Shown here in pieces: positions 12,549 to 43,017 of a stretch of DNA of 49,585 bases. The notes under the pieces are model-generated. The model saw only the letters and a program-made list of their open reading frames with translations. It was not told the DNA's origin and ran no database searches. Positions within the stretch are counted from its first letter, which is position 1. Each line of letters starts with the position of its first letter. This DNA is from Betaproteobacteria bacterium (GTDB taxonomy: Bacteria; Pseudomonadota; Gammaproteobacteria; Burkholderiales; SG8-39), in assembly GCA_012274205.1 (NCBI GenBank), contig JAAOZY010000044.1, positions 1-49,585 of the forward strand. The letters are read 5' to 3'. A program made the position numbers and the translations under genes.

Positions 12549-12584
12549 GGAAGACTCCCGCTCCCTCCCTGGCGGGAGTCTTCC
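12549..12584. repeat. Perfect 13-bp-stem hairpin (GGAAGACTCCCGC / GCGGGAGTCTTCC, 10-nt C/T-rich loop)
   Basis: Seen directly inside the ~530-bp non-coding gap 12144..12673. No flanking U-tract on either strand. Confidence 0.8.
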
Positions 12585-12673
12585 ACCCCTATCCACTGAC
12601 GGCTCGACCGAGAATAGCCGGCAGTTGCCGGCCTCCTAGAGTCTCTTCACCGCACTTTATTTCCGGTAGCCCG

Positions 12674-13075
12674 ATGCCATTTTCTCCGCGCAAGGCAATT
12701 CCGCTATTGCTGCTGGCCGTTTTGAGCAACAGCGCGATGGCGGACTGGGTCAAGGTCGGCAGCAGCAGGACCGAGACCCTTTACGTAGACCCGTCCACCA
12801 TCCGTGCCACGGACAATGTGGCGAGAATGTGGGCTTTGAATGACTTCGTCGCGCTGCAACGAGTCGACAAGCGCCAGCCATTCAAGTCGGAAAAGATGGA
12901 ATATGAATACGACTGCAAGAGCGAAAAGTCGCGCCTGCTCTACTTCTCTTCCCACCCCGAGAGCATGGCGGAAGGCGCAGCACTCGACTTCAATGTTGCG
13001 CCTGGCGCGTGGACAGCCCATTTGCCCGGCAGCGGATTGGAAATCCTGTGGAAAATCGCCTGCGGGAAAGCATAA
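12674..13075 (+). CDS. Secreted surface-adhesin protein-E-like domain protein
   Basis: Signal peptide ends in AMA-DW. ADWVKVGSS...LYVDPSTIR...YEYDCKSEKSRLL...LWKIACGK matches the protein-E-like small secreted proteins common in betaproteobacteria. Confidence 0.7.
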   Translation: MPFSPRKAIPLLLLAVLSNSAMADWVKVGSSRTETLYVDPSTIRATDNVARMWALNDFVALQRVDKRQPFKSEKMEYEYDCKSEKSRLLYFSSHPESMAEGAALDFNVAPGAWTAHLPGSGLEILWKIACGKA

Positions 13076-13260
13076 GCCCCGCTTCGTGCTGAGGCTGCCG
13101 GGTTCGCGACACCCTGCCGCATACCTGCGCCCTTTCCTGGTTCCGTCAGGAGCGGAAGTCTTGCCTGACTGCGCCGCCTGTCGATGAAGGGCGACGCGAT
13201 GGCCACCGGCCGTTCAGGCATGATCCTGATTTTATGCACCACCAACCGGAGAGTCTTGTT

Positions 13261-13575
13261 ATGAAACAACTGAAACGAAGTGCTTCCGCCGCATTTCTTG
13301 CCCTCACGCTGGCAAGCATGGTGGGATGCGCGGCAACCGCCACCAGAGAAAGCACGGGTCAGTTTGTCGATGATGCCGCCATAACCACGAAGGTCAAGGC
13401 GGCGATATTGGACCAGCCAACGCTCAAATTATTCGATATCCATGTGGCCACATTCAATGGGACGGTCGAGCTCAGCGGCATCGTCGCGTCGCAGTCGACC
13501 ATCGACAAGGCGGTCGAAGTTGCGCGCAAGGTCAGCGGTGTGAAGGCGGTCAAGAACGGCATGCGAGTCATGTAG
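13261..13575 (+). CDS. BON-domain lipoprotein (OsmY-like)
   Basis: ATG at 13261 after GGAGAG. Lipobox LASMVGC. DDAAITTKVKAAI...VELSGIVAS...KVSGVKAVKN is a BON domain. Confidence 0.85.
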   Translation: MKQLKRSASAAFLALTLASMVGCAATATRESTGQFVDDAAITTKVKAAILDQPTLKLFDIHVATFNGTVELSGIVASQSTIDKAVEVARKVSGVKAVKNGMRVM

Positions 13576-13607
13576 TACCCGAGCTCAGGCAGGCATGAGC
13601 ACGCGCT

Positions 13608-14162
13608 CTATTTGGCGAGCTGGTCGGCAGCTTTGATTCCCTGGCAGTCGGGGCCGAGATATTTCATTTGAGACTCGCTTTGGATCGTGTGGCGACCGCG
13701 AGCGTCGGTCACGGTCATATCCACGCGAGTAGTCACCGTGTCCCCCTCGGCGACGCTAGTGCCACTGCCGACGTTGGTCGCGCCATTGGCCGTGCAGTTG
13801 AACTCAAACTGGATTGAGTTGCCGCTGTGCACGAGCTTGGCCGGCTCGCAGCGACCTTGGGGATCTACCATCGGCCGATTGCGTGCCGCCATGGCCGGGC
13901 TGATGCAGATGCGCGTGCTGCCGCCCGAGCCCACACCTTGACTACCCATCCTGGACTCGATTTGCTTGCGCTGAGCCGGGGACATGTTGGCCAATGCCTG
14001 CTGCATCTGGCCCCGGAGTGCCGCCATCTGCGCAGCCGTGTCCTGGCCGTCCAGAACCTGCCGGATCTGTTTCATTTCCCACAAGCCGGGCTTGAGCTGG
14101 TGGTTTTCCGCGAATGCGCTGCCGCTCAACATAAGGAGCATCACGAGGGCGAGTTTCTTCAT
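13608..14162 (-). CDS. DUF3617-family secreted protein
   Basis: Real start is MKKLALVMLLMLSGSAFA (ATG at 14160-14162). LKPGLWE and two conserved Cys pairs match my recollection of DUF3617. Confidence 0.7.
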   Translation of the reverse strand: MKKLALVMLLMLSGSAFAENHQLKPGLWEMKQIRQVLDGQDTAAQMAALRGQMQQALANMSPAQRKQIESRMGSQGVGSGGSTRICISPAMAARNRPMVDPQGRCEPAKLVHSGNSIQFEFNCTANGATNVGSGTSVAEGDTVTTRVDMTVTDARGRHTIQSESQMKYLGPDCQGIKAADQLAK

Positions 14163-20932: not shown

Positions 20933-21004
20933 GTATGAATTCCCTCGGTGTTAAGGACAGCATGGACCGGCCCCGGCCAGTCCGCTTGATCCCCGTCACA
21001 CCTG

Positions 21005-21033
21005 ATATGCGGGCGGGCAGCGCACAATGCAAG
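21005..21033 (-). promoter_or_regulatory. Candidate sigma32 (RpoH) heat-shock promoter for hsp20-lon
   Basis: The minus strand reads CTTGCAT-N14-CCGCATAT, against the recalled consensus CTTGAAA-N13-15-CCCCATNT. It lies ~70 nt upstream of the hsp20-like ATG. Confidence 0.45.
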
Positions 21034-21048
21034 CGCCGGGCAGGGGCG

Positions 21049-21105
21049 AAAAAAAACCCCGGGTTGGAGCCCGGGGTTCAGGGTGCCCCGGGTCTGGCCC
21101 GGGGC
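21049..21105 (-). terminator. Twin-hairpin Rho-independent terminator of the phasin gene
   Basis: Minus-strand transcript order: GCCCCGGG-loop-CCCGGGGC (21085..21105), then CCCCGGG-loop-CCCGGGG (21057..21076), followed by T8 (21049..21056). Confidence 0.75.
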
Positions 21106-21161
21106 CGCCGACAGTCTAGGAGGAGGAGGAGAGCAGTCGGCGTTTTCTTTGAAAAGAAAGC

Positions 21162-21710
21162 TTAAGCCGCTTTCTTTTTCGAGGCTTGCTTCACCACGTT
21201 CGCGGTGGCGGCGGTCACATTGGCTTCGGCCATGTCGGTCGCTTGCTTGACCACTTTGGTGAAGCTGTCGTAAGCGGAGTTGGCGGCTGCCATGGCGGAC
21301 TTGACCGCGGCCACTGCAACGTCCGAACCGGCGGGCGCGTTCTTGGTCAGCTTGTCCATCAGTGTCACGACGGTCTTGTTCATTTCCGCAGCTTGCGCTT
21401 CAGCCAGCTTGGTGACTTCGGCCTGGGTCTGGGTCGCGACTTCGTACACATTGCGCGAGTAGCTGATCGCTTTTTCCAGGGCCGGCTGGGCCGAGGTGGC
21501 GCTCAGGTTGACAAATTCTTGCGCGTCCTTGACCGACAGCAGCGCTTTGGCTTGGCTGACGCTGTCTTCAAACGCGGCCTTGGTGGTGTTGAAGTTCAGC
21601 GCCGACAGGCGTTCGAATGCGGCAAACTGGGCTTGGGCGATGCTGAACAGCGCGTCTACGCTGGCTTTGTTGGCGGCAGCAAATTGCTCGGGGGTGGCGT
21701 ACATGGTCAA
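21162..21710 (-). CDS. phaP: Phasin (PHA-granule-associated protein, PhaP family)
   Basis: 182-aa Ala-rich helical protein. MYATPEQFAAANKASVDALFSIAQAQFAAFERLSALNFNTTKAAFEDS is the typical phasin N-terminus. Confidence 0.9.
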   Translation of the reverse strand: MTMYATPEQFAAANKASVDALFSIAQAQFAAFERLSALNFNTTKAAFEDSVSQAKALLSVKDAQEFVNLSATSAQPALEKAISYSRNVYEVATQTQAEVTKLAEAQAAEMNKTVVTLMDKLTKNAPAGSDVAVAAVKSAMAAANSAYDSFTKVVKQATDMAEANVTAATANVVKQASKKKAA

Positions 21711-21765
21711 TCTCCAATTAGGTTACGAAAGGGTCCAGCAAACTTGGGGTGCAATCGCTTTCGGA

Positions 21766-21824
21766 AATTCAAAAATATTGCACTGCAACAATTTGAATTC
21801 TACACCCAACTACCTGCCTGTCAA
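21766..21824 (-). promoter_or_regulatory. Near-consensus sigma70 promoter of phaP with overlapping palindromic operator
   Basis: Minus strand: TTGACA (21819-21824) -N16- TAGAAT (21797-21802). Just downstream is palindrome TTGCAnTGCAA (21778-21788), nested in inverted repeat AATTCAAA/TTTGAATT (21766-21773 / 21792-21799). Confidence 0.6.
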
Positions 21825-22124
21825 GTATTTTTTAAGAAAGACTGCTAAGTTAATGATGTGTTGCACAAATACTAGTAAAATCATCACCTTAGCCAGTTGC
21901 AACGCGTGCCCGCGCCGCCATGTTAATAAATAATCAATATAGAACATATGGTTATATAGAAGCAGCGGTAATGGGCCGGACGGAAGGTTAGCAGGGGCTC
22001 ACTTCTGCTGCGACATACGGACTGCCAAAACGACCGACGCGTGCCCGGCTTGCTATACTGCGCAGCTTTTCCGCCGCACACATGGCTGCAACCACCCTTC
22101 CCCTGCCGCGCACCAGTCTCAGCC

Positions 22125-23015
22125 ATGCCCGCAGTTGAGAGCAATGCGGCGCGGCTGTGGCTGCGCTCCATGCCCGGGCTGTTCGTGCTGCTGTGGAGCA
22201 CCGGCTTCGTCAGCGCCAAGTACGGCCTGCCCTACGCCGAGCCTTTGACTTTTCTGCTGCTGCGTTTCGCCCTGCTGCTGGCCTTGATGCTGCCGCTGGC
22301 GCTGGCGATGCGCGCATCCTGGCCGCGCAGCCCGGCGCAGATCGGCCATGTCGCGCTGGTCGGCGTGCTGATGCAGGGTGGTTATCTGGGCGGCGTGTTC
22401 TGCTCCATTCATCTGGGCATGTCTGCGGGCGTGAGCGCGCTGATCGTCGGCGTGCAGCCGATCCTGACCGCCTTTGCCAGCGCGCCCCTGTTCGGAGAAA
22501 AGTTGCGCGCCCGGCAATGGTCAGGCCTGGTGCTCGGCTTCGCCGGCGTGCTGCTGGTGGTGACCGGGCGTTCGGCGCTGTCGGGGATCACGCCGGCGAC
22601 GCTCGCCTTGTCGCTGCTCGCGCTGCTGTCGATTACCGCCGGCACGCTGTACCAGAAACGCTATTGCGGCGCGGTGGATCTGCGCACCGGTTCGGTGATT
22701 CAATTCGCCGCCGCCGCCGTAGTGGTGTTGCCGCTCGCGCTGACATTCGAGACCATGCGCGTGCACTGGAGCCTCGAATTCATCTGCACCCTGCTGTGGC
22801 TGGTGATGGTGCTGTCGATAGGGGCGATTTCCCTGCTGTATGTGCTCATACGCAAGGGCGCCGCAACCAGGGTGGCGAGCCTGTTCTACCTGGTCCCGCC
22901 CGCCACGGCGCTGATGGCCTATGCCATGTTCGGCGAAACGCTCAGTCCGGTGGCGATGGCCGGGATGCTGATGGCTGCCGCCGGTGTGGCGCTGGTGGTC
23001 TACCGGCGCCAGTAG
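22125..23015 (+). CDS. EamA/DMT-family transporter
   Basis: ATG at 22125. Ten-TM pattern with two EamA repeats (LLWSTGFVSAKYGL..., LSIGAISLLYVLIRKG). Confidence 0.85.
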   Translation: MPAVESNAARLWLRSMPGLFVLLWSTGFVSAKYGLPYAEPLTFLLLRFALLLALMLPLALAMRASWPRSPAQIGHVALVGVLMQGGYLGGVFCSIHLGMSAGVSALIVGVQPILTAFASAPLFGEKLRARQWSGLVLGFAGVLLVVTGRSALSGITPATLALSLLALLSITAGTLYQKRYCGAVDLRTGSVIQFAAAAVVVLPLALTFETMRVHWSLEFICTLLWLVMVLSIGAISLLYVLIRKGAATRVASLFYLVPPATALMAYAMFGETLSPVAMAGMLMAAAGVALVVYRRQ

Positions 23016-25735: not shown

Positions 25736-26320
25736 ATGTCCCAAACCCTACGCGCGCCGCGCAGCGACAACCGCCTGCCGCAGGTCCTGGACGAGGCGGC
25801 ACGGCTGTTTCGCGAGAAAGGCTATGCCGCAACTTCGATGCGCGACATCGCGGCCGCGGTCGACATGCTGCCCGGCTCGCTCTACTACCACTTTGCCGCC
25901 AAGGAAGATCTGCTGGTGGCGGTGTACGAACAGGGCGTGCGCCTGATCACGGAAAAAGTGCGTGCCGCCGTCGCCCGGCACGAGGAGCCCTGGCAGCGGC
26001 TCGAGGCCGCCGCCGTCGCGCACCTGGAGGCGCTGCTCAAGACCGGCGATTACGCGCTGGTGGTGATCCGGGTGCTGCCGCAGGACGTGCCCAAGGCGGC
26101 GGCGCGCCTGGTGAAGCTGCGCGACGGTTACGACACCCTGTTCGCGGAGCTGGTGGCGGCGCTGCCGCTGCCGCCGGAGACCGACCGCCAGAGTTTGCGC
26201 CTGCTGCTGCTGGGCGCGCTCAACTGGAGCCAGCACTGGTTTCGCGACAGCGGCAGACATTCCCCGCGCGCGATTGCGCGCAGTTTTCTCAGATTGTTGC
26301 GCGAGGCGCAGAAACCCTGA
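25736..26320 (+). CDS. TetR/AcrR-family transcriptional regulator
   Basis: The N-terminal HTH LDEAARLFREKGYAATSMRDIAAAVDMLPGSLYYHF is typical of TetR. Confidence 0.9.
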   Translation: MSQTLRAPRSDNRLPQVLDEAARLFREKGYAATSMRDIAAAVDMLPGSLYYHFAAKEDLLVAVYEQGVRLITEKVRAAVARHEEPWQRLEAAAVAHLEALLKTGDYALVVIRVLPQDVPKAAARLVKLRDGYDTLFAELVAALPLPPETDRQSLRLLLLGALNWSQHWFRDSGRHSPRAIARSFLRLLREAQKP

Positions 26321-26351
26321 ATATCCGCCAACGTTGCAGAGGCAATTCGTC

Positions 26352-26765
26352 ATGACTAAGCACGCACCCAAGGTACTGGTCACCAAAATCGGACTCGATG
26401 GACACGATCGCGGCAGCCGCGTGGTCGCGTCCTTCCTGCGCGACGCCGGCATGGAGGTGGTGTATACGCCGCCGTGGCAGGACATCCCCACGGTGGTCAA
26501 GCTGGCGATGGAGGAAGACGTCGACGTGATCGGCGTGTCCTCGCTCGCGACCGACCACCTGATCGTACCCAAGCTGATGCAGGCGCTGCGCGCCGCCGGG
26601 CTCGAGGACATCGCCGTCGTCGTCGGTGGCATCGTGCCCGACGCGGACGAAGCGGTGCTGCTCGAAGCCGGCGTGGCCCGGGTATTCCACCCGGGCAGCG
26701 CGCTCGAAGACATCGCGGCCGAGATCGGGCGGCTTACGCAACAACGGCGCGAAGTCCGTATTTGA
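26352..26765 (+). CDS. Acyl-CoA mutase small subunit (cobalamin-binding domain)
   Basis: ATG at 26352. [19 protein letters not shown] contains the DxHxxG cobalamin His-ligand motif. VIGVSSL and VVVGGIVP match the B12-binding Rossmann domain. 137 aa. Confidence 0.9.
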
Positions 26766-26784
26766 TCGACAGGGAGGAATACGC

Positions 26785-28464
26785 ATGAACAAACCACTGG
26801 ATGCGGCGAAACTCGCCGAGCGCGAGACCGGAGCGGAGCAATGGCAGCGCGAATACGCGGACGGCGCGGCGGGCGACAAGACCCTGCGCAACCGTTCCGG
26901 CGTCGAGGTGAAGCCTCTTTACACGCCGCAGGACTGGAACGGCGACCATGCCGACGCGCTCGGCTACCCGGGCCAGCCGCCCTATACGCGCGGCATCTAT
27001 GCCAGCATGCACCGCGGCCGCAGCTGGAGCCAGCGCCAGCTGATCGGTTTGGGCACGCCGGCGGACTACAACGCGCGCCTGCTCGAAATGATCGCCCAAG
27101 GCACCAGCGCGGTATCGCTGATACCGTGCAACTCGGTGTTCCGCGGCTACGACATGGACGAAGTGCATGCGGAGCTGCTGGGCACCTGCGGCGTGGTCGC
27201 GAATACGGCGCAGCACATGGATCAGTGCCTCGCCGGCGTCGATCTTGCGCGCACCTCCTGCGCCATGAACGACCCGTCGCCGTTCACCCTGCTCGCATTC
27301 ATGCTGGCGACGGCGAAACGGCGCGGCGTCGACTGGCGCTCGATCAGCGGCACCTCGAACCAGAGCGACTACCTCAGCCACTATGTCGCCAACCACATGT
27401 TTTTTCGCATCGCGCTGCCCGGCGCGCGCCGCATCCTCACCGATCACATCGAGTTCTGCGGCCAGCACCTGCCGCGCTGGAATCCGCTGTCGGTGGTGGG
27501 GCAGCACATGCAGCAGGCCGGCGCCACGCCGGCCGAGGCCATGGCGTTCACGCTGTCCTCGGCGATCCAGTATGCCGATGACTGCAGCGCGCGCGGCATG
27601 GACCCCGATGCGTTCCTGCCGCGCTTCACTTTTTTCTTCGACATCTCGGTCAGCCTGTTCGAGGAGATCGCCAAGTTTCGCGCCGGCCGGCGCATCTGGG
27701 CGCGCCTTGCGCGCGAGCGCCTGGGTGCGCGCGATCCGCGCTCCTGGCGCTTCAAGTTCCACGGCCAGACTTCGGGCGCGGACCTCACGCGGGCGCAGCC
27801 GCTCAACAACATCGCGCGCGTCACGGTGCAGGCGATCGCCGGCATCCTCGGCGGGCTGCAGTCGCTGCATACCGACGCCTACGACGAGGCGCTGTCCTGC
27901 CCGACCGAATTCGGTGCGCGCATCGCGGTGAACACGCAGAACATCCTGCGCGAGGAGGCGCGCCTCACCGACGTGATCGATCCACTCGGCGGCAGCTACT
28001 ACATCGAGTCGCTCACCGACGAAATGGAGCGCAGGATTCTCGCCGTCATGGCCGAGGTCGAGGCGGCGGGCGGCATGTACGCCGCGGTGGAGCAGGGGCT
28101 GGTGCAGAAGAAAATCGGCGCCTCGGCGCGCGCGTTCCAGGAGAAGGTCGAGTCGGGCGAGCAGACCGTGGTCGGGGTCAATGCCTACCGGGTGGAGGAG
28201 GGCCGCGGCGAGCGCCAGGCGCTGGCCACGCCGGATCCGGCGAACATGCAGGCGCACATCGCCGCGTTCAGGGCGTACAAGGAGGCGCGCTCGCAGGCGG
28301 CGGTGCAGCGCGCACTCGACCGCCTCGCCGCTTCCTGCGGCGACCCGCAGCAGAATATTTTCGCGCGCGTGGTCGAGGCGGCCGAAGCCGGCTGCACCCA
28401 CGGCGAAATCTGCGCCACGCTGCGGCGCGAACTGGGCTTCGGCCAGCCGCTGGTGATGGTCTGA
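26785..28464 (+). CDS. Acyl-CoA mutase large (substrate-binding TIM-barrel) subunit, divergent active site
   Basis: ATG at 26785 after AGGGAGG. 559 aa, collinear by eye with methylmalonyl-CoA mutase alpha ([51 protein letters not shown]). Specificity positions are non-canonical (see findings). Confidence 0.9.
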
Positions 28465-28486
28465 GCGCAGGCCGGGGCGAACCGGC

Positions 28487-29440
28487 ATGAACGCCGAGTC
28501 CAGTGCGAGCCCCTGCGCCGCAATCCTCGCCGGTGACCGGCGCGCGCTGGCGCGCGCGATGTCGGCGGTGGAGAATGAGACCGATGCGGGCAAGGCGCTG
28601 CTGCGCGAGCTGCAGCCGCAGCTTGGGCGCGCGCGCGTGCTCGGCATCACCGGCCCGCCCGGCGCCGGCAAGTCGACGCTGGTCAATGCGCTGATCGGCG
28701 CCTGGCTCGCGCGCGGCGCCAGCGTGGGCGTGGTCGCGGTCGATCCGTCCAGTCCTTTTTCCGGCGGCGCCATTCTCGGCGACCGCATTCGCATGGGCGA
28801 GCACCAGGCGCATGAGCGCGTGTTCATCCGCTCGCTCGCCTCGCGCGGGCACGGCGGCGGCCTGTCGCGCACCGCCGCGCGGATAGTGGACCTGCTCGAT
28901 GCCGCCGGCTACCAGCAGATCATCGTCGAGACCGTGGGCGCGGGCCAGTCCGAGGTCGAAGTGGCCGAGGTCGCGGACACGCGCATCGTGGTGTGCCCGC
29001 CCGGCCTCGGCGACGAAGTGCAGGCACTCAAGGCCGGCATACTCGAGATCGCCGACATCCTGGTGGTGAACAAGGCCGACCTGCCGCAGGCCGAGCGCAC
29101 CGAGCGCGAATTGCTCGCCATGCTGTCGCTGCATCGCTACGCGGACTGGACGCCGCAGGTGCTGCGCACCGTCGCCACCAGCGGCGCGGGCGTGTCCGAA
29201 CTGGCCGATGTCATCGAGCGCCACGCGGCGGCCTGCGCCGGCGCGCGCCGTTCGCATGGCGGGCGCGTGCGCCGCCTGATCGCCGCCAGCGCCGCCGACT
29301 GGGTGAAGCGGCGCATCGAGAACCTGGCCAGCGCCGAATTCGATCAGCTGTGCATGCTGGTGCGCAGCGGCGAGCTCGATTACGCCAGCGCCGACCGGCG
29401 TGCGCTGCAGCTTGCGCTGCATCCCGAGAACAAGGCTTGA
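28487..29440 (+). CDS. meaB: MeaB/ArgK-type G-protein chaperone for B12 mutases
   Basis: P-loop GITGPPGAGKSTL, VAVDPSSPFSGGAILGDRIRM, ETVGAGQSE, and NKAD (NKxD). Confidence 0.9.
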   Translation: MNAESSASPCAAILAGDRRALARAMSAVENETDAGKALLRELQPQLGRARVLGITGPPGAGKSTLVNALIGAWLARGASVGVVAVDPSSPFSGGAILGDRIRMGEHQAHERVFIRSLASRGHGGGLSRTAARIVDLLDAAGYQQIIVETVGAGQSEVEVAEVADTRIVVCPPGLGDEVQALKAGILEIADILVVNKADLPQAERTERELLAMLSLHRYADWTPQVLRTVATSGAGVSELADVIERHAAACAGARRSHGGRVRRLIAASAADWVKRRIENLASAEFDQLCMLVRSGELDYASADRRALQLALHPENKA

Positions 29441-30351
29441 AACCGCCGCAGCGCCGCGGTTTTCCCGCGGGCATCCTGTGGGTGCTGGCCGCGCTCACGC
29501 TGGGCTGGGGCTTCAACTGGCCGATGATCAAGCTCGCGCTGAGCGAGCTGCCGGTGCTGAGTTTCCGCAGCGTGTGCCTGCTCGGCGGCGCCGCCGGCCT
29601 GTTCGCCATCGCCGCCTGGAAGCGCCTGCCGCTGCGCGTGCCGCGCGGGCAGTGGCGCCGGCTGCTGCCGATCACGCTGTTCAACATCACCGTGTGGAAC
29701 CTGTGCGTCACCTACGGCATCCGCCACATGCCCTCGGGCCGCGCCGCCATCCTCGCCTACACCATGCCGCTGTGGAGCGTGCCCCTGTCGGCGTGGCTGC
29801 TGGGCGAGCGCATCAGCGCGCGCCGCATCGTCGGCGTCGGCCTCGGCATGCTCGCCATGCTGCTGCTGCTTTCGAGCGAACTGCGCGCGGTGCAGGCGGC
29901 GCCCGTAGGCACCCTGCTGATACTGGGCGGCGCACTCAGCTGGGCGCTGGGCACGGTGCTGATGAAACGCTACCCGGTCGACCTGCCGGTCACCGCGCTC
30001 ACCGCCTGGCAGCTGCTGCTCGGCGGCATTCCGCTCTATGCCGGCGCGCTGGCGTTCGACCTGGACCGTCTGCATCCGCTGACGCTGTGGCCGGCGGTCG
30101 CATTCGCCTACAACGTCATCGTCGCGTTCGTCTTCTGCTACTGGGCCTGGTTCAAAATCGTTGCGTCGGTGCCGGTGGGCGTGTCTTCGCTTGCGGTCCT
30201 GATGATCCCGGTGGTGGGCGTGTTCAGCGGCATGCTGGTGCTGTCCGAAACGCCGCACTGGCAGGACTATGTGGCGCTGGCGCTGGTGCTGGCGGCGCTG
30301 GCCACGGTGATGCTGCCGCCGGGTTCGGTGCGCGCGCTCATCAAAAGATAG
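29437..30351 (+). CDS. EamA/DMT-family transporter, translationally coupled to meaB
   Basis: There is no in-frame ATG before TM1 (ILWVLAALTLGWGFNW). TTG at 29437 overlaps the meaB TGA (cTTGA). GTG 29482 would remove part of the first hydrophobic segment (ILWVLAALTLGWGFNW), so it is unlikely. Confidence 0.8.
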   Translation: MKPPQRRGFPAGILWVLAALTLGWGFNWPMIKLALSELPVLSFRSVCLLGGAAGLFAIAAWKRLPLRVPRGQWRRLLPITLFNITVWNLCVTYGIRHMPSGRAAILAYTMPLWSVPLSAWLLGERISARRIVGVGLGMLAMLLLLSSELRAVQAAPVGTLLILGGALSWALGTVLMKRYPVDLPVTALTAWQLLLGGIPLYAGALAFDLDRLHPLTLWPAVAFAYNVIVAFVFCYWAWFKIVASVPVGVSSLAVLMIPVVGVFSGMLVLSETPHWQDYVALALVLAALATVMLPPGSVRALIKR

Positions 30352-30489
30352 CCGGCGGCGATTGCGCTGCTAGCAAGTGTTTTCGTCCAGTACGGCGACC
30401 ACATCGTTTTGCGCTGCATCAGCGTGCGAGTCCGAGCCCGAGTCAGTCGAGCGACGGACGCTACGCCGGGTCTGAGCGCCCCCTCACAT

Positions 30490-30680
30490 CGCTCCAATCG
30501 CCTGCTTGCTTGAGGCCAGAGTATTTGAGCAAGATCAACAGTCTTGTAGAAGCCTTCTGGTAGAAACGTATGGCCGGTGCGTTCGCGAAGGCATGCGATG
30601 CGAATCCCTTGGCAGGCGGATCCCGTGTTGCCCGCCGGATTGATCTTCCCATCGCGCTGGAGGCTTTCCAGGCGAGGATC
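30490..30680 (-). pseudogene. Possible remnant of a GNAT acetyltransferase gene
   Basis: The minus-strand frame reads ...AKGFASHAFANAPAIRFYQKAS..., resembling the GNAT motif-B end (N-x-x-A-I-x-F-Y-x-K-x-G-F). There is no start codon and no intact N-terminal half. Confidence 0.25.
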
Positions 30681-30704
30681 TCGATACGCAAAAGGAGCAG
30701 GAAA

Positions 30705-32171
30705 ATGGCGCTAATGACCCCCGAACAATTCGAACAGAGCCTGAAGGCGCGCAAGCCCCGCGTATTCATGAACGGAAAGCTGGTGGAGAACATCCTTGAA
30801 AACAGAAACACGCGGACGGTGGTCGAGGCGAACAAGGCCAGTTATGAATGGGCCCTGGACCCGCGCTACAAGGACATCATGAGCTGCCATTCCCCGCTCA
30901 TCGACGACGTGGTCAACCGCTATACGCATGTCAGCGCCAGCACCGACGATCTGATGAAAAAGGCGGAGGCCGGGACCTTTACCGCCGAAACGCTCGGTAC
31001 CTGTATTTACCGCTGCGTGGGCTACGATACCTTTCATGCGCTCGCCGGCACGACCTGGGAAATGGACAAGGACCTGGGCACCGCGTATCACCCCAGGTTC
31101 CTTGAGTATCTCAAGATGGTGCAACGCGAGGATCTCTCCGTGGCCGGCGCGCTCACCGAGCCGCGCGGCAAACGCAGCCAGAAAACCCTGGACTGGCCGG
31201 ACCCGTTCCTGTCCTTGAAAGTCGTGGACAAAAACGACGACGGCATCTTCGTGCGCGGGGCCAAGATCAACATCAGCGGCGCCTATGCCAGCCATGAATT
31301 GGTGGTCCTGCCACAGTCTTCGCATGTGCAGGGCGAAGAAGACTACGCGGTTGCCTTCGCCACCCCGACGGATGCGCCGGGGATTACCTATGTCTGCCAG
31401 TATTCCGCCTATTCCGCGGAAAGAGATGGGGCCGATGATCTGGAGGAATTGGGCAATCCGCGCTTCGGCCAGAGAGAAACCTCCCTGGTCATCTTCGACA
31501 AGGTGTTCGTTCCCTGGAACCGCGTGTTCCACTGCGGCGAAGTCAAATACTCGGCGAAATTCGTGACCCGGTTCGCCAAGACGCACAGGATGACCTGCGG
31601 CGGTACCTGCAAGGTAGGCTTCATGAATCAGATCATCGGCGCATGCAGCCTGATCCAGGAGTACAAAGGCCTGGAAAAAGTTAGCCACATCAATGACCAG
31701 CTGACTGAAATGGTTGTTTTGAGAGAGACCGGCCGGGCCTGCGGCATGGCAGCCGCCATCAAGGGCAAAGAGGATCCGCCGGGTTCAGGCGTCTATTTGC
31801 CTGACGAGGTGATGGGCAATGTGGCGAAGCTGAACATCTGCAATTCGTTCTGGCGGGTCATGGCTCTGGCGGGCGACATCGGCGGCGGTCTGGTCGTGAC
31901 CATGCCCTCCCTGAAGGAACTGAAGAATCCCGAGGTCAAGGACTATGTAAACGAGTTCTACAGCTTCGGCTCGGATGAGCCCACGGAAAACATCATGAAA
32001 GTGCACAAGCTCCTGCAGAACTGGACCGCGGGCCAGCATGGTGTAGGCACCTGGCACGGCGCCGGACCGGTCATGGCCCAGAAGATCGCGCTGCAGCGCG
32101 TCGTGAAATTCGATCGCGAGAAAGACATCGTCAAGCACACCCTCAAGCTGAAGGAAAAAGTCCACAGCTGA
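30705..32171 (+). CDS. 4-hydroxybutyryl-CoA dehydratase (AbfD)-like enzyme, HpaB superfamily
   Basis: ATG at 30705 after AAAGGAG. 488 aa. CxxxC at C100/C104 (GTCIYRCVG) and HRMTCGGTCKVG (H294, C298, C302) parallel the recalled AbfD [4Fe-4S] ligands Cys99, Cys103, His292, Cys299. Confidence 0.8.
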   Translation: MALMTPEQFEQSLKARKPRVFMNGKLVENILENRNTRTVVEANKASYEWALDPRYKDIMSCHSPLIDDVVNRYTHVSASTDDLMKKAEAGTFTAETLGTCIYRCVGYDTFHALAGTTWEMDKDLGTAYHPRFLEYLKMVQREDLSVAGALTEPRGKRSQKTLDWPDPFLSLKVVDKNDDGIFVRGAKINISGAYASHELVVLPQSSHVQGEEDYAVAFATPTDAPGITYVCQYSAYSAERDGADDLEELGNPRFGQRETSLVIFDKVFVPWNRVFHCGEVKYSAKFVTRFAKTHRMTCGGTCKVGFMNQIIGACSLIQEYKGLEKVSHINDQLTEMVVLRETGRACGMAAAIKGKEDPPGSGVYLPDEVMGNVAKLNICNSFWRVMALAGDIGGGLVVTMPSLKELKNPEVKDYVNEFYSFGSDEPTENIMKVHKLLQNWTAGQHGVGTWHGAGPVMAQKIALQRVVKFDREKDIVKHTLKLKEKVHS

Positions 32172-32218
32172 GCCTGGGACCCGGCTTGGAATAGCCGGGC
32201 CAGGGGTAGAGACCAAGT

Positions 32219-33181
32219 TTAGAGCGCGGGCAGACCAGGTCGGCGCGCGATGCGCTCCGTTTTCCAATTTGCGAGTGCCCATTTCCAGAATTCGGCGACC
32301 GTCGCCCGGCGCAATTGCTGCGGCGGCGCCTGCCCTAGGAATTCCATGACTTGCACCAGCGCCGGCAGCGGATCGCGCGCGTCCACCGGCGGCGCCAGCG
32401 TCTGTTTCGACAGCTTTTCGCCGTCGGCGTTGACCGCCGCGGGCAGGTGCAGGTAGCGCGGCGTCGGCAGGCCGAGCAGGTGCTGCAGATAGATCTGCCG
32501 CGGCGTCGAATTGAGCAGGTCGGCGCCGCGCACGACATCGCTGATGCCCTGTTCCGCATCGTCGACCACCACCGCGAGCTGGTAGGCATACAGGCCGTCG
32601 GCGCGCAGCAGCACGAAGTCGCCGACTTCCGCGGCGAGGTCCTGGCCCTGCTTTCCCTGCAGTGCGTCCTGGAAGCTGACTGGCGTGTCGTCGACGCGCA
32701 GGCGCCAGGCGCGCGGCGTTTTTCCCGGCGCGATGCCATTGCGGCAAGTGCCGGGGTAGACGCGCGCAGCGTCACCAGGACCCTCACCCCCGCCCCCTCT
32801 CCCGCTGGCGTGGGCGAAGGGAGTGTCGTGCGCGCTGCGCGCGAAGTTGAGGTGGGAATCGGCGATCTCGCGCCGCGTGCAGGCACAGGGATACACCAGG
32901 CCCTGCGCCTGCAGGCGCGCCAGCGCCGCTGCATAGGCTGCGCCGCGCCGGCTCTGGTACATGACGGCGCCGTCCCAGTGCAGGCCGCAGGCTTCGAGCG
33001 TGCGCAGGATCGCGTCGGCCGCGCCGGCTTGCTCGCGCGGCGGGTCCAGATCTTCCATGCGCAGCAGCCATTCGCCGCCGCGGCTCTTCGCCGCGAGGTA
33101 GCTGCCCGCGGCGGCGACCAGCGAACCGAAGTGCAGGGGCCCGGTGGGCGAGGGGGCGAAGCGGCCGCGGTAGGGACTCAT
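32219..33181 (-). CDS. gluQ: tRNA glutamyl-Q(34) synthetase (GluQRS)
   Basis: MSPYRGRFAPSPTGPLHFGS (HIGH-type), LRMEDLD, YPCAC...YPGTC zinc knuckle, DFVLLRADGLYAYQLAVVVDD, and KLSKQ. The anticodon-binding domain is absent, as expected. Confidence 0.9.
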   Translation of the reverse strand: MSPYRGRFAPSPTGPLHFGSLVAAAGSYLAAKSRGGEWLLRMEDLDPPREQAGAADAILRTLEACGLHWDGAVMYQSRRGAAYAAALARLQAQGLVYPCACTRREIADSHLNFARSAHDTPFAHASGRGGGGEGPGDAARVYPGTCRNGIAPGKTPRAWRLRVDDTPVSFQDALQGKQGQDLAAEVGDFVLLRADGLYAYQLAVVVDDAEQGISDVVRGADLLNSTPRQIYLQHLLGLPTPRYLHLPAAVNADGEKLSKQTLAPPVDARDPLPALVQVMEFLGQAPPQQLRRATVAEFWKWALANWKTERIARRPGLPAL

Positions 33182-40127: not shown

Positions 40128-41033
40128 CTAGTAACGCAGCAGTGAGGCGCGCACGTCCTGATCGTCCAGGCGCTTGAGAAACCAGCGCAGCGCCTTGCCC
40201 TTCTCGCGCGCGCGCCAGGCGTAGTAGAGGTTGCCCGCCGGCTTGATTTCCTCCACTTCCTTCGCCACCAGGCGTTTCGCCTTGATCAATGGCGCTGCCG
40301 CATGCGCCGGCAGATAGCCGCAGCCCAGGCCGGCCACTTGCGCCGCCACCTTCGATTGCAGATCCGGGAGCGTGAGCACGTCCTGCCCGGTGAGCAGGCC
40401 GACCGAGCGCGGCGCCAGGCTGCGCGAGCTGTCGCCGATGGCGACGGCGCGGTGCGCGAGGATCTGCTCGTGCTGGAGCGGATCGGGCAGTTTCGCCAAG
40501 GGGTGCGCAGGCGCGACGGCGAACACGAAGTCCTTGTAGCCGAGCATGCGAATCGCGTAGCCGCCGCCGGCGGGCACCTCGCCCGATACCCCCAGGGCCA
40601 GATCGGCGCGTCCCGACACCAGCGCATCCCAGGTGCCGGCGAGCACTTCGTGGGACACGCGTATGCGCGTGCCCGATTCCTCGGCGTAGAAGTCCGCGAT
40701 CAGCGCAAACAGCTGCGGTGCCGGTATCATGATGTCGAGCGCGATGCGCAGCTCGGTTTCCCAGCCGGTAGCGACGCGCTTCACCCGGCATTCGAGTTCG
40801 TCCGCGGCGCGCAGCAGTTGCCGGCCCTCGCGCATCAGTTCCTCCCCGGCCGGCGTCAGCCGTGCGCGGCGGCGGCTGCGATCGAACAGCGCCACGCCCA
40901 GATCCTGTTCCAGCTTCTGCATCGTATAAGTGAGCGCGGAGGGCACGCGATGCAGCTCAGCCGCGGCGGCGGCGAAGCTGCCTTTGCGCTCGATCGCGTC
41001 CAGCGCCTGCAGCGCATCCAGGCTCAGTTTCAT
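40128..41033 (-). CDS. LysR-family transcriptional regulator
   Basis: The N-terminal wHTH reads LQALDAIERKGSFAAAAAELHRVPSALTYTMQKLEQDLGVALFDR. A LysR substrate-binding domain follows. Confidence 0.9.
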   Translation of the reverse strand: MKLSLDALQALDAIERKGSFAAAAAELHRVPSALTYTMQKLEQDLGVALFDRSRRRARLTPAGEELMREGRQLLRAADELECRVKRVATGWETELRIALDIMIPAPQLFALIADFYAEESGTRIRVSHEVLAGTWDALVSGRADLALGVSGEVPAGGGYAIRMLGYKDFVFAVAPAHPLAKLPDPLQHEQILAHRAVAIGDSSRSLAPRSVGLLTGQDVLTLPDLQSKVAAQVAGLGCGYLPAHAAAPLIKAKRLVAKEVEEIKPAGNLYYAWRAREKGKALRWFLKRLDDQDVRASLLRY

Positions 41034-41046
41034 GGGCAGGGAAGTT

Positions 41047-41063
41047 ATTCAGTAGTTTTGAAT
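41047..41063. promoter_or_regulatory. Candidate LysR box ATTCA-N7-TGAAT (T-N11-A type)
   Basis: An interrupted palindrome 14 bp from the LysR start codon, in the divergent LysR / pirin intergenic region. Confidence 0.5.
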
Positions 41064-41159
41064 ATAAATGTCAAAATTATTCGCTTTTTTTCCAAATGCG
41101 GCAAGCCTATCATCTGATCCATGGGTTCAAAACACCAGAACTAACCGTAGGAGACAAGC

Positions 41160-41858
<699 letters not shown>

Positions 41859-41895
41859 ACGGCGTAATTGCACCATTCACCAATGGAGGAATCGC

Positions 41896-42306
41896 ATGAA
41901 CACCAAAGTACAAGACTCCGCGGCCCTGGCCGGTCGCATCCTGCTCGCGCTGATTTTCATCATCTCGGGCTACGGCAAGATCAAGGGCTATGACGCTACC
42001 GCCGGCTACATGGCGAGCAAGGGCCTGCCCCTGGTCGGCGTATTGCTGCCGCTCACCATCCTGGTCGAACTCGGCGGCAGCCTGCTGATCGTGATCGGCT
42101 GGAAGGCGCGCTGGGCAGCCGCGGCGCTGTTCCTGTTCCTGATACCGGTCACGCTGGTGTTCCACAATCCGGCCGGACTGGACGCGGCACAAGCGCAGGG
42201 GCAGATGATCCACTTGCTGAAGAACATTTCCATCATGGGCGGCATGCTTGGCCTGTTCGCTTTCGGCCCCGGACGCTTTAGTATTGACGGCTGGAAGAGC
42301 GCATAA
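41896..42306 (+). CDS. DoxX-family membrane protein
   Basis: 136 aa with 4 TM helices. LAGRILLALIFIISGYGKI is the typical DoxX N-terminus. Confidence 0.85.
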   Translation: MNTKVQDSAALAGRILLALIFIISGYGKIKGYDATAGYMASKGLPLVGVLLPLTILVELGGSLLIVIGWKARWAAAALFLFLIPVTLVFHNPAGLDAAQAQGQMIHLLKNISIMGGMLGLFAFGPGRFSIDGWKSA

Positions 42307-42448
42307 GAGTCTATTTGGAAATGAGGGGAAAACTCCTCCTCATACTCCCCTATATTGGGCGTTGCAAAATGAAATTTCGCAACGGATTCTGATTGCAAAT
42401 CCCGGACCGGTGAAGCCGGTCCGCCGCGCCAAGGGAAGAGGTTCGACC

Positions 42449-42940
42449 GTGATCAAAAAGCTCTATCACAATGCCTACCGCTGCCGCGACTCGGAGCAGA
42501 CGCGGCAGTTTTACGAAGACTTTCTCGGGCTGCGCCTGGCAGGCACGCTCGAAATCAAGGAAACGAAGAGCGGCCGCAACACCGATACGCTGCATACGTT
42601 CTACCAGCTCGACGACGGCTCCTACCTCGCCTTCTTCGAGGCGCCGGACATGGCTTTCGAGTTCAAGCGCCAGCACGACTACGATCTGCACATCGCGCTC
42701 GAGGTGGATGCGCCCGAGCTGGAGCCGATGATGGCAAAGGGCAGGGCGCAGGGAATCGAAACGCGCGGCATTTCCGATCATGGCTTCATCCACTCGATCT
42801 ACTTCCGCGATCCGAATGGCTATGTCATCGAGCTGACTGCGAAGATGCCCGATCATGCGCTGGCGATGGATCCGGCGACCAACGGCGCCCGCGCCAAGCT
42901 CGACCGGTGGAGCGCGAACCGGGCGCACCCGGCAGCCTGA
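42449..42940 (+). CDS. VOC-family (glyoxalase/bleomycin-resistance/dioxygenase fold) protein
   Basis: GTG at 42449 after GGGAAGAGG. (V)IKKLYHNAYRCRDSEQTRQFYEDFLGL and HIALEV...IHSIYFRDPNGYVIEL are VOC beta-alpha-beta-beta-beta modules. Confidence 0.8.
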   Translation: MIKKLYHNAYRCRDSEQTRQFYEDFLGLRLAGTLEIKETKSGRNTDTLHTFYQLDDGSYLAFFEAPDMAFEFKRQHDYDLHIALEVDAPELEPMMAKGRAQGIETRGISDHGFIHSIYFRDPNGYVIELTAKMPDHALAMDPATNGARAKLDRWSANRAHPAA

Positions 42941-43017
42941 CAGCCAATACAATCCGGGTTCGGAAATCCAGTCCGGCATAGTGCCGGCCTGCGTATGCGT
43001 CATCGTGAGGGGCTGCC

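What the first reader, a model, noticed from the sequence alone, without database searches (positions are those of the whole stretch)
30352..32171. Lower-GC 4-hydroxybutyryl-CoA-dehydratase-like radical enzyme next to the divergent mutase: possible new CoA-ester rearrangement/dehydration route
Seen in sequence:
- The 488-aa protein keeps a CxxxC (C100, C104) and an H-x3-C-x3-C cluster (H294, C298, C302). These sit where I recall the AbfD [4Fe-4S] ligands Cys99/Cys103/His292/Cys299. That distinguishes it from flavin-only HpaB hydroxylases.
- Its codon third positions look clearly less GC-rich than the flanking genes.
- It is separated from the mutase operon by 353 bp containing what looks like a GNAT gene remnant on the opposite strand. 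This points to later acquisition.

Inference: a mutase lacking the carboxylate-binding Arg could interconvert 3-hydroxyisobutyryl-CoA and 4-hydroxybutyryl-CoA, the hydroxymethyl analogue of the methylmalonyl/succinyl pair. An AbfD-type enzyme would then dehydrate the product to crotonyl-CoA. This is purely a hypothesis suggested by adjacency and chemistry.
Basis: inference. Interest (0 to 1): 0.62.

Follow-up and report, generated by a model that had tools for sequence, protein, structure and literature searches.

The report
Acquired divergent AbfD-like iron-sulfur flavoenzyme gene
The gene is a real, intact relative of the radical enzyme 4-hydroxybutyryl-CoA dehydratase, but it is a horizontally acquired single-gene insert with no conserved link to the neighbouring B12 mutase, and it lacks two catalytic residues of the known enzyme, so its usual "abfD" label is probably wrong.

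Summary
Window 30705..32171 (+) encodes an intact 488-aa protein with the AbfD fold: E 7e-104 to PDB 1u8v, and an AlphaFold model at TM 0.95.

- **What is kept.** All four [4Fe-4S] ligand positions are present (C100, C104, H294, C302).
- **What is lost.** The protein belongs to a separate, very conserved clade (83-97% identity across Desulfobacterota, Dehalococcoidia, Acidobacteriota and a few Burkholderiales). It is only 36-39% identical to the two solved dehydratases. In all 81 clade sequences the catalytic Tyr296 is replaced by Cys298, and the YxTE loop carrying Glu455 is deleted.
- **How it got here.** The gene sits in a 1.87-kb insert (about 30349..32214). In syntenic relatives the EamA and GluQRS genes abut at this site.
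- **Same cassette elsewhere.** It occurs at 90-94% nucleotide identity in two other high-GC genomic contexts. dN/dS is 0.07-0.09, so it is under purifying selection.
- **No link to the mutase.** None of 80 AbfD-like loci carries a mutase, B12 small subunit or MeaB gene. None of 80 mutase loci carries an AbfD-like gene.
- **Other claims.** The proposed GNAT remnant has no support.

Verdict: the mutase-coupled pathway is not supported. What is present is an uncharacterised AbfD-family subfamily, probably not a 4-hydroxybutyryl-CoA dehydratase. Moderate interest.

The parts
30349..32214 (.). Insert relative to syntenic Burkholderiales relatives, lying between the convergent genes EamA and GluQRS
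   Evidence: blastn homology to L088, L089, L093 and L100 ends at 30343-30348 and resumes at 32215-32225. In those loci the EamA and GluQRS matches lie 9-15 bp apart. Per-run metagenome contigs span both junctions with 0 mismatches.
30352..30498 (.). Spacer unique to this window, with no detectable coding or RNA feature
   Evidence: No homology to L001, L081 or the syntenic relatives. No Pfam hit in any frame. No Rfam hit.
30499..30704 (+). Conserved leader travelling with the gene; AAGGAG ribosome-binding site at 30692-30697
   Evidence: Aligns with L001 from 30499 and with L081-L083 from 30609. No sigma-70-like promoter or terminator was predicted here.
30705..32171 (+). AbfD-like [4Fe-4S]/FAD enzyme gene, 488 aa, member of a divergent subfamily
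   Evidence: Pfam HpaB_N + HpaB. PDB 1u8v E 7e-104. AF2 pLDDT 96; Foldseek TM 0.95 to 1u8v and 0.96 to 6vjr. dN/dS 0.065-0.087 against L001 and L081.
31002..31016 (+). Codons for C100-x3-C104, equivalent to AbfD cluster ligands C99 and C103; Y102 replaces AbfD Q101
   Evidence: invariant in 81 clade sequences.
31584..31610 (+). Codons for H294-R-M-T-C298-G-G-T-C302. H294 and C302 match AbfD ligands H292 and C299; C298 replaces the catalytic Tyr296, with one inserted residue
   Evidence: the motif HRMTCGGTCK is invariant in the clade.
32031..32069 (+). Codons for residues 443-455 (GQHGVGTWHGAGP), the region where the AbfD YxTE loop with Glu455 is deleted; W450 replaces M457
   Evidence: the 4-residue deletion is present in all 81 clade sequences.
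32180..32199 (.). 7-bp GC-rich hairpin (CCCGGCT-tggaat-AGCCGGG) between the two convergent stop codons
   Evidence: Read directly from the sequence. It has no T-run and was not called by the terminator scan.
25736..30351 (+). Neighbouring, unrelated operon: TetR, B12-binding small subunit, divergent acyl-CoA mutase large subunit, MeaB, and an EamA transporter (TTG start at 29437 overlaps the MeaB stop)
   Evidence: The TetR, small subunit, large subunit and MeaB genes are each found in 72-80 of 80 Burkholderiales loci, never with an AbfD-like gene.
32219..33181 (-). GluQRS (tRNA glutamyl-Q34 synthetase), the conserved right-hand flank of the insertion site
   Evidence: NCBIfam NF004314, 413 bits; synteny.

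Best explanation
Window 30705..32171 is a horizontally acquired, solitary gene. It was inserted into a variable spot between the 3' ends of EamA and GluQRS.

It encodes a member of a distinct and very strongly conserved subfamily of the AbfD (4-hydroxybutyryl-CoA dehydratase) branch of the HpaB/acyl-CoA-dehydrogenase fold.

The protein most likely still binds FAD and a [4Fe-4S] cluster with three Cys and one His ligand, and carries out cluster- and flavin-assisted (radical or Lewis-acid) chemistry. This step is inferred.

Its substrate pocket is systematically rebuilt relative to AbfD:
- Tyr296 to Cys, with a one-residue insertion
- the Glu455 loop deleted
- Q101 to Y, H188 to N, Q189 to I, M457 to W

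Its substrate or reaction is therefore probably not the 4-hydroxybutyryl-CoA to crotonyl-CoA dehydration (inferred).

In other genomes the gene usually travels with its own regulator (TetR or a sigma-54 activator) and often with small Nitro_FeMo-Co-domain proteins. It does not travel with a fixed pathway, so it behaves as a self-contained, inducible enzyme. It is not functionally tied to the adjacent B12 mutase operon.
For: **Fold and ligands**
-.

**Distinct clade**
- AbfD and the Nitrosopumilus enzyme are 58% identical to each other. The query is 36-39% identical to either.
- Clade members are 83-97% identical across phyla.

**Active-site changes**
- They are invariant in 81 sequences and visible without alignment in motif extracts.
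- In a family-wide survey, the full canonical signature appears only in representatives at least 48% identical to AbfD.
- T190, E257, Y296 and E455 are reported as important for dehydratase activity (bioRxiv 10.1101/2020.02.05.935528).
- The S191/E258 pair, K303 and the HGAG motif are retained.

**Insertion**
-. The junctions are present in independent per-run contigs.
- The same cassette occurs in two other contexts.
- Purifying selection: dN/dS 0.065-0.087.

**No mutase link**
-.

**Neighbourhood of the clade**
- Sigma-54 activator in 27 of 80 loci, TetR in 21 of 80, Nitro_FeMo-Co small proteins in about 24 of 80, otherwise variable.
Against: - No biochemical data exist for any clade member. 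Cofactor content and substrate are inferred from sequence only.
- Another residue could take over the roles of Tyr296 and Glu455, so residual dehydratase or vinylacetyl-CoA isomerase activity is not excluded.
- Enoyl-CoA hydratase (9 of 80 loci) and acyl-CoA dehydrogenase (4 loci) neighbours fit ordinary CoA-ester chemistry, including crotonyl-CoA.
- In this window the gene lacks its usual regulator and its Nitro_FeMo-Co partner. It lies co-directionally 353 bp behind the mutase operon with no predicted terminator. Read-through co-expression with the mutase is therefore possible.
- No mobility genes or flanking repeats explain the insertion.
Confidence: 0.68

Rival explanations
1. One reading: the divergent mutase interconverts 3-hydroxyisobutyryl-CoA and 4-hydroxybutyryl-CoA, and this AbfD-like enzyme dehydrates the product to crotonyl-CoA. 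The two would form a new two-step route.
For: - The genes are adjacent, on the same strand, with no predicted terminator between them.
- The mutase lacks the carboxylate-binding Arg; Asn stands at that position.
- The proposed rearrangement is chemically analogous to known acyl-CoA mutase reactions (general knowledge).
Against: - 0 of 80 AbfD-like loci and 0 of 80 mutase loci show the pairing.
- The two families have nearly disjoint taxonomic ranges.
- The gene is an insert that is absent at the syntenic site of close relatives, which keep the whole mutase operon.
- The nearest copies of the cassette sit in unrelated contexts.
- The enzyme lacks Tyr296 and Glu455.
- Elsewhere the mutase operon is accompanied by acyl-CoA synthetase, acyl-CoA dehydrogenase, short-chain dehydrogenase (SDR), HMG-CoA-lyase-like and branched-chain transporter genes, not by a dehydratase of this type.
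Confidence: 0.03
2. It is a genuine, merely divergent, 4-hydroxybutyryl-CoA dehydratase / vinylacetyl-CoA isomerase. It would act on its own in 4-hydroxybutyrate, GABA or crotonate metabolism, as automatic annotation (KEGG abfD) states.
For: - Best PDB hits are the two solved dehydratases, aligned over the full length.
- All four cluster ligands, K303, E258, S191 and the HGAG motif are kept.
- JGI annotates many members this way.
- Enoyl-CoA hydratase neighbours occur in 9 of 80 loci.
Against: - Tyr296 and Glu455, reported as important for dehydratase activity, are absent in every clade member. Five further pocket residues differ.
- Identity is 36-39%, against 58% between bacterial and archaeal true enzymes.
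- Among the recurrent neighbour clusters that were annotated, none was a 4-hydroxybutyrate CoA-transferase, CoA-ligase or dehydrogenase.
- Neighbourhoods are dominated by regulators and Fe-S or corrinoid-related genes.
Confidence: 0.18
3. It is an HpaB-type two-component flavin monooxygenase (an aromatic ring hydroxylase, as NCBI names some members).
For: Pfam HpaB_N and HpaB domains. NCBI names such as 'aromatic ring hydroxylase'.
Against: - TIGR02309 and TIGR02310 scores (145 and 68 bits) are far below their cut-offs (480 and 885).
- HpaB structures match much less well (TM 0.82-0.87, 16-23% identity) than AbfD.
- The Cys/His cluster ligands are invariant here and absent from HpaB-like representatives.
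- No flavin reductase partner is adjacent.
- Most hosts are strict anaerobes.
Confidence: 0.02
4. It is an assembly chimera or a decaying passenger gene with no function in this host.
For: - The source is a low-coverage permafrost metagenome.
- The gene is a GC outlier.
- Its usual regulator and partner genes are missing here.
Against: - Contigs from separate runs span both junctions exactly.
- The reading frame is intact and dN/dS is 0.065-0.087 among the three high-GC copies.
- GC3 (0.79) is adapted to a high-GC host. Across the clade, GC3 tracks host GC (r = 0.87).
Confidence: 0.04

Closest known systems
AbfD, 4-hydroxybutyryl-CoA dehydratase / vinylacetyl-CoA delta-isomerase of Clostridium aminobutyricum (PDB 1u8v)
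   Same: - Same fold over the full length (TM 0.95, rmsd 1.7 A).
- Same four [4Fe-4S] ligand positions.
- The Lys after the last Cys, the Glu/Thr(Ser) pair near the flavin, and the HGAG motif are retained.
   Different: - Only 39% identity.
- Tyr296 to Cys with a one-residue insertion; the YxTE loop with Glu455 deleted.
- Q101 to Y, H188 to N, Q189 to I, M149 to L, M457 to W, all invariant in the clade.
- No 4-aminobutyrate or 4-hydroxybutyrate pathway genes nearby.
Nmar_0207, the oxygen-tolerant 4-hydroxybutyryl-CoA dehydratase of Nitrosopumilus maritimus (PDB 6vjr)
   Same: Same fold (TM 0.96, rmsd 1.4 A) and cluster ligands.
   Different: - 36% identity.
- The archaeal enzyme keeps the Tyr, the Glu and the whole AbfD pocket, and is 58% identical to AbfD.
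- The window protein does not.
HpaB-type flavin-dependent monooxygenases (for example Thermus HpaB, PDB 2yyg)
   Same: Same Pfam domains and overall fold.
   Different: - No Fe-S ligands in HpaB.
- 16-23% identity.
- Equivalog scores are far below cut-off.
Other uncharacterised Fe-S-ligand-bearing clades of the family (representatives P0121 at 50% identity, P0129 at 38%)
   Same: They share CxYRC, the H-R-x-x-C-G-G-x-C-K motif and the missing YxTE loop.
   Different: Much lower identity. Their genomic context is unrelated in the one case examined. None is characterised.

Membership tests
Canonical 4-hydroxybutyryl-CoA dehydratase (AbfD/4HBD, EC 4.2.1.120 / 5.3.3.3) | HpaB_N + HpaB (acyl-CoA-dehydrogenase-like) fold, full length | tested here: met
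   Pfam 262 and 186 bits. 1u8v E 7e-104. Foldseek TM 0.95-0.96.
Canonical 4-hydroxybutyryl-CoA dehydratase (AbfD/4HBD, EC 4.2.1.120 / 5.3.3.3) | [4Fe-4S] ligands Cys99, Cys103, His292, Cys299 | tested here: met
   C100, C104, H294 and C302 align to them and are invariant in 81 sequences.
Canonical 4-hydroxybutyryl-CoA dehydratase (AbfD/4HBD, EC 4.2.1.120 / 5.3.3.3) | Flavin-side pair Thr190 / Glu257 | tested here: met
   S191 (a conservative change) and E258 are invariant. The alignment around E258 shifts by one residue in a wider family alignment.
Canonical 4-hydroxybutyryl-CoA dehydratase (AbfD/4HBD, EC 4.2.1.120 / 5.3.3.3) | Catalytic Tyr296 | tested here: not met
   The motif HRMTCGGTCK contains no Tyr; Cys298 stands at this position in all 81 sequences.
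Canonical 4-hydroxybutyryl-CoA dehydratase (AbfD/4HBD, EC 4.2.1.120 / 5.3.3.3) | Catalytic Glu455 in the Y-x-T-E-S-M-H-G-A-G loop | tested here: not met
   A four-residue deletion is present in all 81 sequences. No acidic residue occurs in QNWTAGQHGVGTWHGAGP.
Canonical 4-hydroxybutyryl-CoA dehydratase (AbfD/4HBD, EC 4.2.1.120 / 5.3.3.3) | Clusters by sequence with the characterised enzymes | tested here: not met
   36-39% identity to both, which are 58% identical to each other. The full canonical signature appears only in representatives at least 48% identical to AbfD.
Canonical 4-hydroxybutyryl-CoA dehydratase (AbfD/4HBD, EC 4.2.1.120 / 5.3.3.3) | Dehydratase / isomerase activity; FAD and Fe-S content | not testable with these tools
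   Needs anaerobic purification, UV-vis/EPR and enzyme assays.
HpaB two-component flavin monooxygenase | Reaches the NCBIfam equivalog cut-off (TIGR02309 / TIGR02310) | tested here: not met
   144.6 bits against a cut-off of 480.2; 67.7 bits against 885.2.
HpaB two-component flavin monooxygenase | No Fe-S ligands; partner flavin reductase gene nearby | tested here: not met
   The ligands are present and invariant. The neighbouring genes are EamA and GluQRS.
   0 of 80 and 0 of 80 loci. No assembly is shared between the two top-80 lists. The lists are truncated, so rare co-occurrence is not excluded.
Horizontally acquired insert | Absent from the syntenic site in close relatives; compositional outlier; same segment in unrelated contexts | tested here: met
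Horizontally acquired insert | Mobility genes, tRNA target or flanking repeats | tested here: not met
   No tRNA in the window. Only short chance-level repeats. No integrase or transposase gene within or directly flanking the insert.

The most novel reading that the evidence does not exclude
The clade is a new enzyme type within the AbfD scaffold.
- It would be an Fe-S/flavin catalyst in which an invariant active-site cysteine (C298) and a more aromatic, hydrophobic pocket replace the Tyr/Glu acid-base pair.
- It would carry out a reaction other than 4-hydroxybutyryl-CoA dehydration on a still unknown substrate.
- It spreads between phyla as a regulator-plus-enzyme cassette.
- Because pipelines label it abfD, it would inflate inferences of 4-hydroxybutyrate CO2-fixation cycles from metagenomes of anoxic sediments and soils.
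Probability: 0.55. Interest if true: 0.55.

Novelty: new variant of a known kind. Interest (0 to 1): 0.35.

Why it matters
**Consequence for metagenome surveys**
- abfD is widely used as the marker gene for the dicarboxylate/4-hydroxybutyrate and 3-hydroxypropionate/4-hydroxybutyrate CO2-fixation cycles.
- One such survey assigned its AbfD hits to Dehalococcoidia and Syntrophobacter (PMC5507547). Those are the taxa where this clade lives.
- If the clade is not a 4-hydroxybutyryl-CoA dehydratase, such counts are misleading.

**Consequence for enzymology**
- A protein kept at about 85% identity across phyla, with a rebuilt pocket around an Fe-S cluster and a flavin, is a reasonable target for finding new radical or Lewis-acid chemistry.

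**Consequence for this window**
- The practical result is negative. The gene should not be used to infer the substrate of the neighbouring divergent mutase.

Tried and rejected
- **First structure prediction.** With a shallow alignment (20 sequences, 83-97% identical) it failed (pLDDT 35). It was repeated with 69 diverse sequences (pLDDT 96).
- **GNAT remnant.** ORFs and all six-frame peptides of 30340..30715 gave no acetyltransferase hit, nor any other credible Pfam hit.
- **Regulatory RNA in the leader.** No Rfam match at E <= 1.
- **Promoter, terminator and sigma-54 signals.** No sigma-70-like promoter was predicted and only one terminator-like site, inside the gene. By eye, the TGGCA...TTGC in the leader has the wrong spacing for a sigma-54 promoter.
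- **Mobile-element signatures.** Only short chance repeats and no tRNA.
- **Literature.** Searches for a characterised member of the clade, or for the AbfD mutagenesis data, found nothing usable. The primary mutagenesis paper (Zhang et al. 2015) is not held. The importance of Y296 and E455 therefore rests on a secondary citation.
- **Context of the nearest outgroup.** P0121 (50% identity) was uninformative.
- **B12-related neighbours of the clade.** URO-D-type methyltransferases, RACo, corrinoid adenosyltransferase, B12-radical-SAM and PocR were considered as a hidden link to the B12 mutase here. This was rejected as evidence. None is a mutase, such genes are common in these anaerobes, and no background control was possible.
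- **RNA-level expression.** Only DNA metagenome runs were found.
Full report
**1. What is at the coordinates**

The region 30352..32171 holds a 353-bp non-coding stretch followed by one gene, 30705..32171 on the + strand. The gene encodes 488 aa and starts at an ATG 7 nt after an AAGGAG site. The longer ORF from 30570 is not used by any homologue.

Pfam finds HpaB_N and HpaB. NCBIfam's HpaB equivalogs score far below their cut-offs.

Against the PDB, the best matches are:
- the Clostridium aminobutyricum 4-hydroxybutyryl-CoA dehydratase AbfD (1u8v, E 7e-104)
- the Nitrosopumilus enzyme (6vjr, E 1e-95)
- HpaB proteins, which follow only at E 2e-36 and worse

An AlphaFold model built on a diverse alignment has pLDDT 96. 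It superposes on 1u8v and 6vjr at TM 0.95-0.96, against 0.82-0.87 for HpaB structures.

**2.

*Cysteine and histidine motifs.* C100, C104, H294 and C302 align to the AbfD cluster ligands C99, C103, H292 and C299. They are invariant in 81 clade sequences. This part holds.

*Base composition.* The gene's GC is 0.584, the lowest of 37 genes in the window (z = -2.4). GC3 is 0.79, against 0.92 (EamA) and 0.84 (GluQRS). Within the window that is only z = -1.1, and a CAI-like index is normal. The dip is therefore mostly in codon positions 1 and 2. It reflects the conserved amino-acid composition of a protein family that lives mainly in lower-GC anaerobes. Across the clade, GC3 follows the GC of the host flanks (r = 0.87).

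*GNAT remnant.* No frame of 30340..30715 gives an acetyltransferase hit or any other credible Pfam hit. There is no Rfam hit either.

**3. It is an insert**

The mutase operon consists of TetR, a B12-binding small subunit, the large subunit and MeaB. EamA follows, and its TTG start overlaps the MeaB stop. The first four genes are each found in 72-80 of 80 Burkholderiales loci.

In the closest syntenic relatives (L088, L089, L093, L100) the 3' end of EamA abuts the 3' end of GluQRS, with 9-15 bp between the matches. Nucleotide homology to the window stops at 30343-30348 and resumes at 32215-32225. So about 30349..32214 (1.87 kb) is extra DNA in this genome.

Other relatives hold different, also lower-GC, cargo at the same place. 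The site is therefore variable.

Contigs assembled separately from three permafrost-metagenome runs cross both junctions without a mismatch. A co-assembly chimera is unlikely.

The same cassette occurs elsewhere:
- at 90% nucleotide identity in another Burkholderiales MAG (L001), shared from window 30499 to 32159
- at 94% in three further contigs (L081-L083), shared from 30609 to 32160
- in both cases among quite different neighbours

dN/dS among the three copies is 0.065-0.087, so the gene is maintained by selection. No integrase, transposase, tRNA or terminal repeats were found. The mechanism of insertion is unknown.

**4. No link to the mutase**

- None of 80 loci around clade members (up to 10 kb each side) contains a homologue of the window's mutase large subunit, small subunit or MeaB.
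- None of 80 loci around mutase homologues contains an AbfD-like gene.
- The AbfD-like clade is found mainly in Desulfobacterota (Syntrophobacteraceae, Desulfobacterales, Desulfatiglandales) and Dehalococcoidia, with a few Acidobacteriota. Only one Burkholderiales representative appears.
- The mutase clade is almost wholly Burkholderiales. The two lists share no assembly.
- Elsewhere the mutase operon lies near acyl-CoA synthetase, acyl-CoA dehydrogenase, short-chain dehydrogenase (SDR), HMG-CoA-lyase-like and branched-chain transporter genes.

What remains in favour of the model is co-directional adjacency with no predicted terminator. That could give accidental co-transcription in this one organism.

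**5. Not a canonical AbfD**

AbfD and the archaeal enzyme are 58% identical to each other. The window protein is 36-39% identical to each. Its own clade is 83-97% identical across phyla.

In all 81 clade sequences:
- the segment after the His ligand reads H-R-M-T-C-G-G-T-C-K, where AbfD has H-R-Q-S-Y-G-G-C-K, so Tyr296 is replaced by Cys298 with one inserted residue
- the loop Y-x-T-E that carries Glu455 is deleted (GVGTWHGAG against VGYRTESMHGAG)
- Q101 to Y, H188 to N, Q189 to I, T190 to S, M149 to L (Ile in one sequence), and M457 to W

A wider alignment moves the gap by one position. However, the motif has no Tyr and the loop region has no acidic residue, so the conclusion does not depend on the alignment.

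T190, E257, Y296 and E455 are cited as important for dehydratase activity in the Nitrosopumilus structure preprint, which refers to the AbfD mutagenesis study. I could not read the primary paper.

In a survey of 50%-identity representatives, the full canonical signature occurs only in sequences at least 48% identical to AbfD. Two other uncharacterised representatives (P0121, P0129) share the Cys motif and the deletion.

Retained features are the four ligands, Lys303, Glu258/Ser191 and the HGAG motif. From my own recollection of the AbfD literature, not checked here, that motif lies by the thioester carbonyl. These retained features argue that cluster, flavin and probably an acyl-thioester substrate are kept. 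The part of the pocket that handles the C2-C4 chemistry is changed.

**6. Genomic company of the clade**

The gene is usually preceded by its own regulator:
- a PAS-containing sigma-54 activator in about 27 of 80 loci
- a TetR in 21 of 80
- a PocR-domain protein in some

What follows varies:
- small Nitro_FeMo-Co-domain proteins in about 24 of 80 loci, also next to the Burkholderiales copies L001 and L081
- ParA/NUBPL-ferredoxin and NifU_N genes
- URO-D-type methyltransferases (13-14 loci), RACo and corrinoid adenosyltransferase
- B12-radical-SAM, metallo-beta-lactamase-fold and nitroreductase genes
- enoyl-CoA hydratase (9 loci) and acyl-CoA dehydrogenase (4 loci)

Among the recurrent neighbours that were annotated, no 4-hydroxybutyrate pathway genes appeared. 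This pattern suggests a self-contained, inducible enzyme rather than a step in one fixed pathway. I could not identify the substrate. In the window the gene has neither its regulator nor the Nitro_FeMo-Co partner.

**7. Most likely mechanism**

*Shown:* the AbfD fold, the four ligand positions, the remodelled pocket, acquisition as an insert, purifying selection, and no association with the mutase.

*Inferred:* the protein binds FAD and a His/Cys3 [4Fe-4S] cluster and uses them as AbfD does, for Lewis-acid and one-electron chemistry. It acts on a different, probably thioester, substrate. Cys298 takes a catalytic role or becomes a cluster ligand.

I put about 0.68 on this overall reading, 0.18 on a true but divergent 4-hydroxybutyryl-CoA dehydratase, 0.03 on the mutase-coupled route, and a few per cent on a monooxygenase or an artefact.

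**8. Novelty and value**

This is an uncharacterised variant within a known enzyme family, so 'new variant of a known kind'. The pathway idea that made the finding attractive is not supported.

What keeps some interest is the conserved active-site rebuild. In addition, pipelines call these genes abfD, which is used as a marker for 4-hydroxybutyrate CO2-fixation cycles in metagenomes. One such study assigned its hits to Dehalococcoidia and Syntrophobacter.

Noticed in passing
window 26274..28464 (B12 small subunit and mutase large subunit); loci L087-L166: The adjacent acyl-CoA mutase belongs to a Burkholderiales clade (81 sequences) whose best PDB match is the HcmA large subunit (4r3u). Its invariant active-site signature differs from MCM, ICM and HCM: RQ-L-[IV]-G-[LH]-G (Leu where MCM has Tyr89 and HCM has Ile90), S-L-I-P-C-N-S in place of HCM S-T-D117-F-D-M-P, and A-N-H-M-F where MCM has Arg207. 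The substrate is unknown. Neighbours elsewhere include acyl-CoA synthetase, acyl-CoA dehydrogenase, short-chain dehydrogenase (SDR), HMG-CoA-lyase-like and branched-chain transporter genes.
   Followed up: partly
window 30349..32214; L090, L095, L096, L098, L102, L103 at the same site: The interval between the mutase operon (MeaB/EamA) and GluQRS is a variable spot. Several relatives carry other inserts of 0.3-5.6 kb there, with lower GC (0.55-0.65) and unrelated ORFs. No mobility gene was seen in the window's own insert.
   Followed up: partly
L001 226..609 (-); L081 8849..9232 (+); about 24 of L001-L080: Small Nitro_FeMo-Co-domain (NifX/NafY-like) proteins are the most frequent non-regulatory neighbours of the AbfD-like clade. 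In L081 one lies with a C_GCAxxG_C_C protein inside the same low-GC island as the gene. In several Desulfobacterota loci they come with ParA/NUBPL-ferredoxin and NifU_N genes. This may point to dedicated cluster delivery. The window copy lacks them.
   Followed up: partly
L013, L024, L041, L050, L059, L062, L063 and other loci: Corrinoid-related genes recur beside the clade gene in anaerobes: URO-D-type methyltransferase, RACo reductive activator, CobA/BtuR adenosyltransferase, B12-binding radical SAM and the PocR sensor. There was no background control, so the significance is unknown.
   Followed up: no
window 32160..32171 versus L001 and L081: Nucleotide homology among the three high-GC copies of the cassette ends about 11 bp before the stop codon. 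The last residues differ (…KVHS, …KQPS, …KEPS). The right-hand boundary of the shared segment therefore lies inside the 3' end of the gene.
   Followed up: no
window 29437..29440: The EamA transporter gene appears to start at a TTG that overlaps the MeaB stop codon (TTGA). This suggests translational coupling, which would make the transporter the last gene of the mutase operon.
   Followed up: no
window 1443..2654, 12000..14000, 21000..22500, 41000..43000: There are other GC dips in the window (0.54-0.61). The Na+/H+ exchanger gene 1443..2654 has a GC (0.585) as low as the AbfD-like gene, so that gene is not the only compositional outlier.
   Followed up: no
window 8472..11090 (-): An 872-aa ORF has an unusual codon-position GC pattern (GC1 0.51, GC2 0.58, GC3 0.80). 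Its only Pfam match is thaumatin-like (E 1.3e-10), with no individually significant domain stretch.
   Followed up: no
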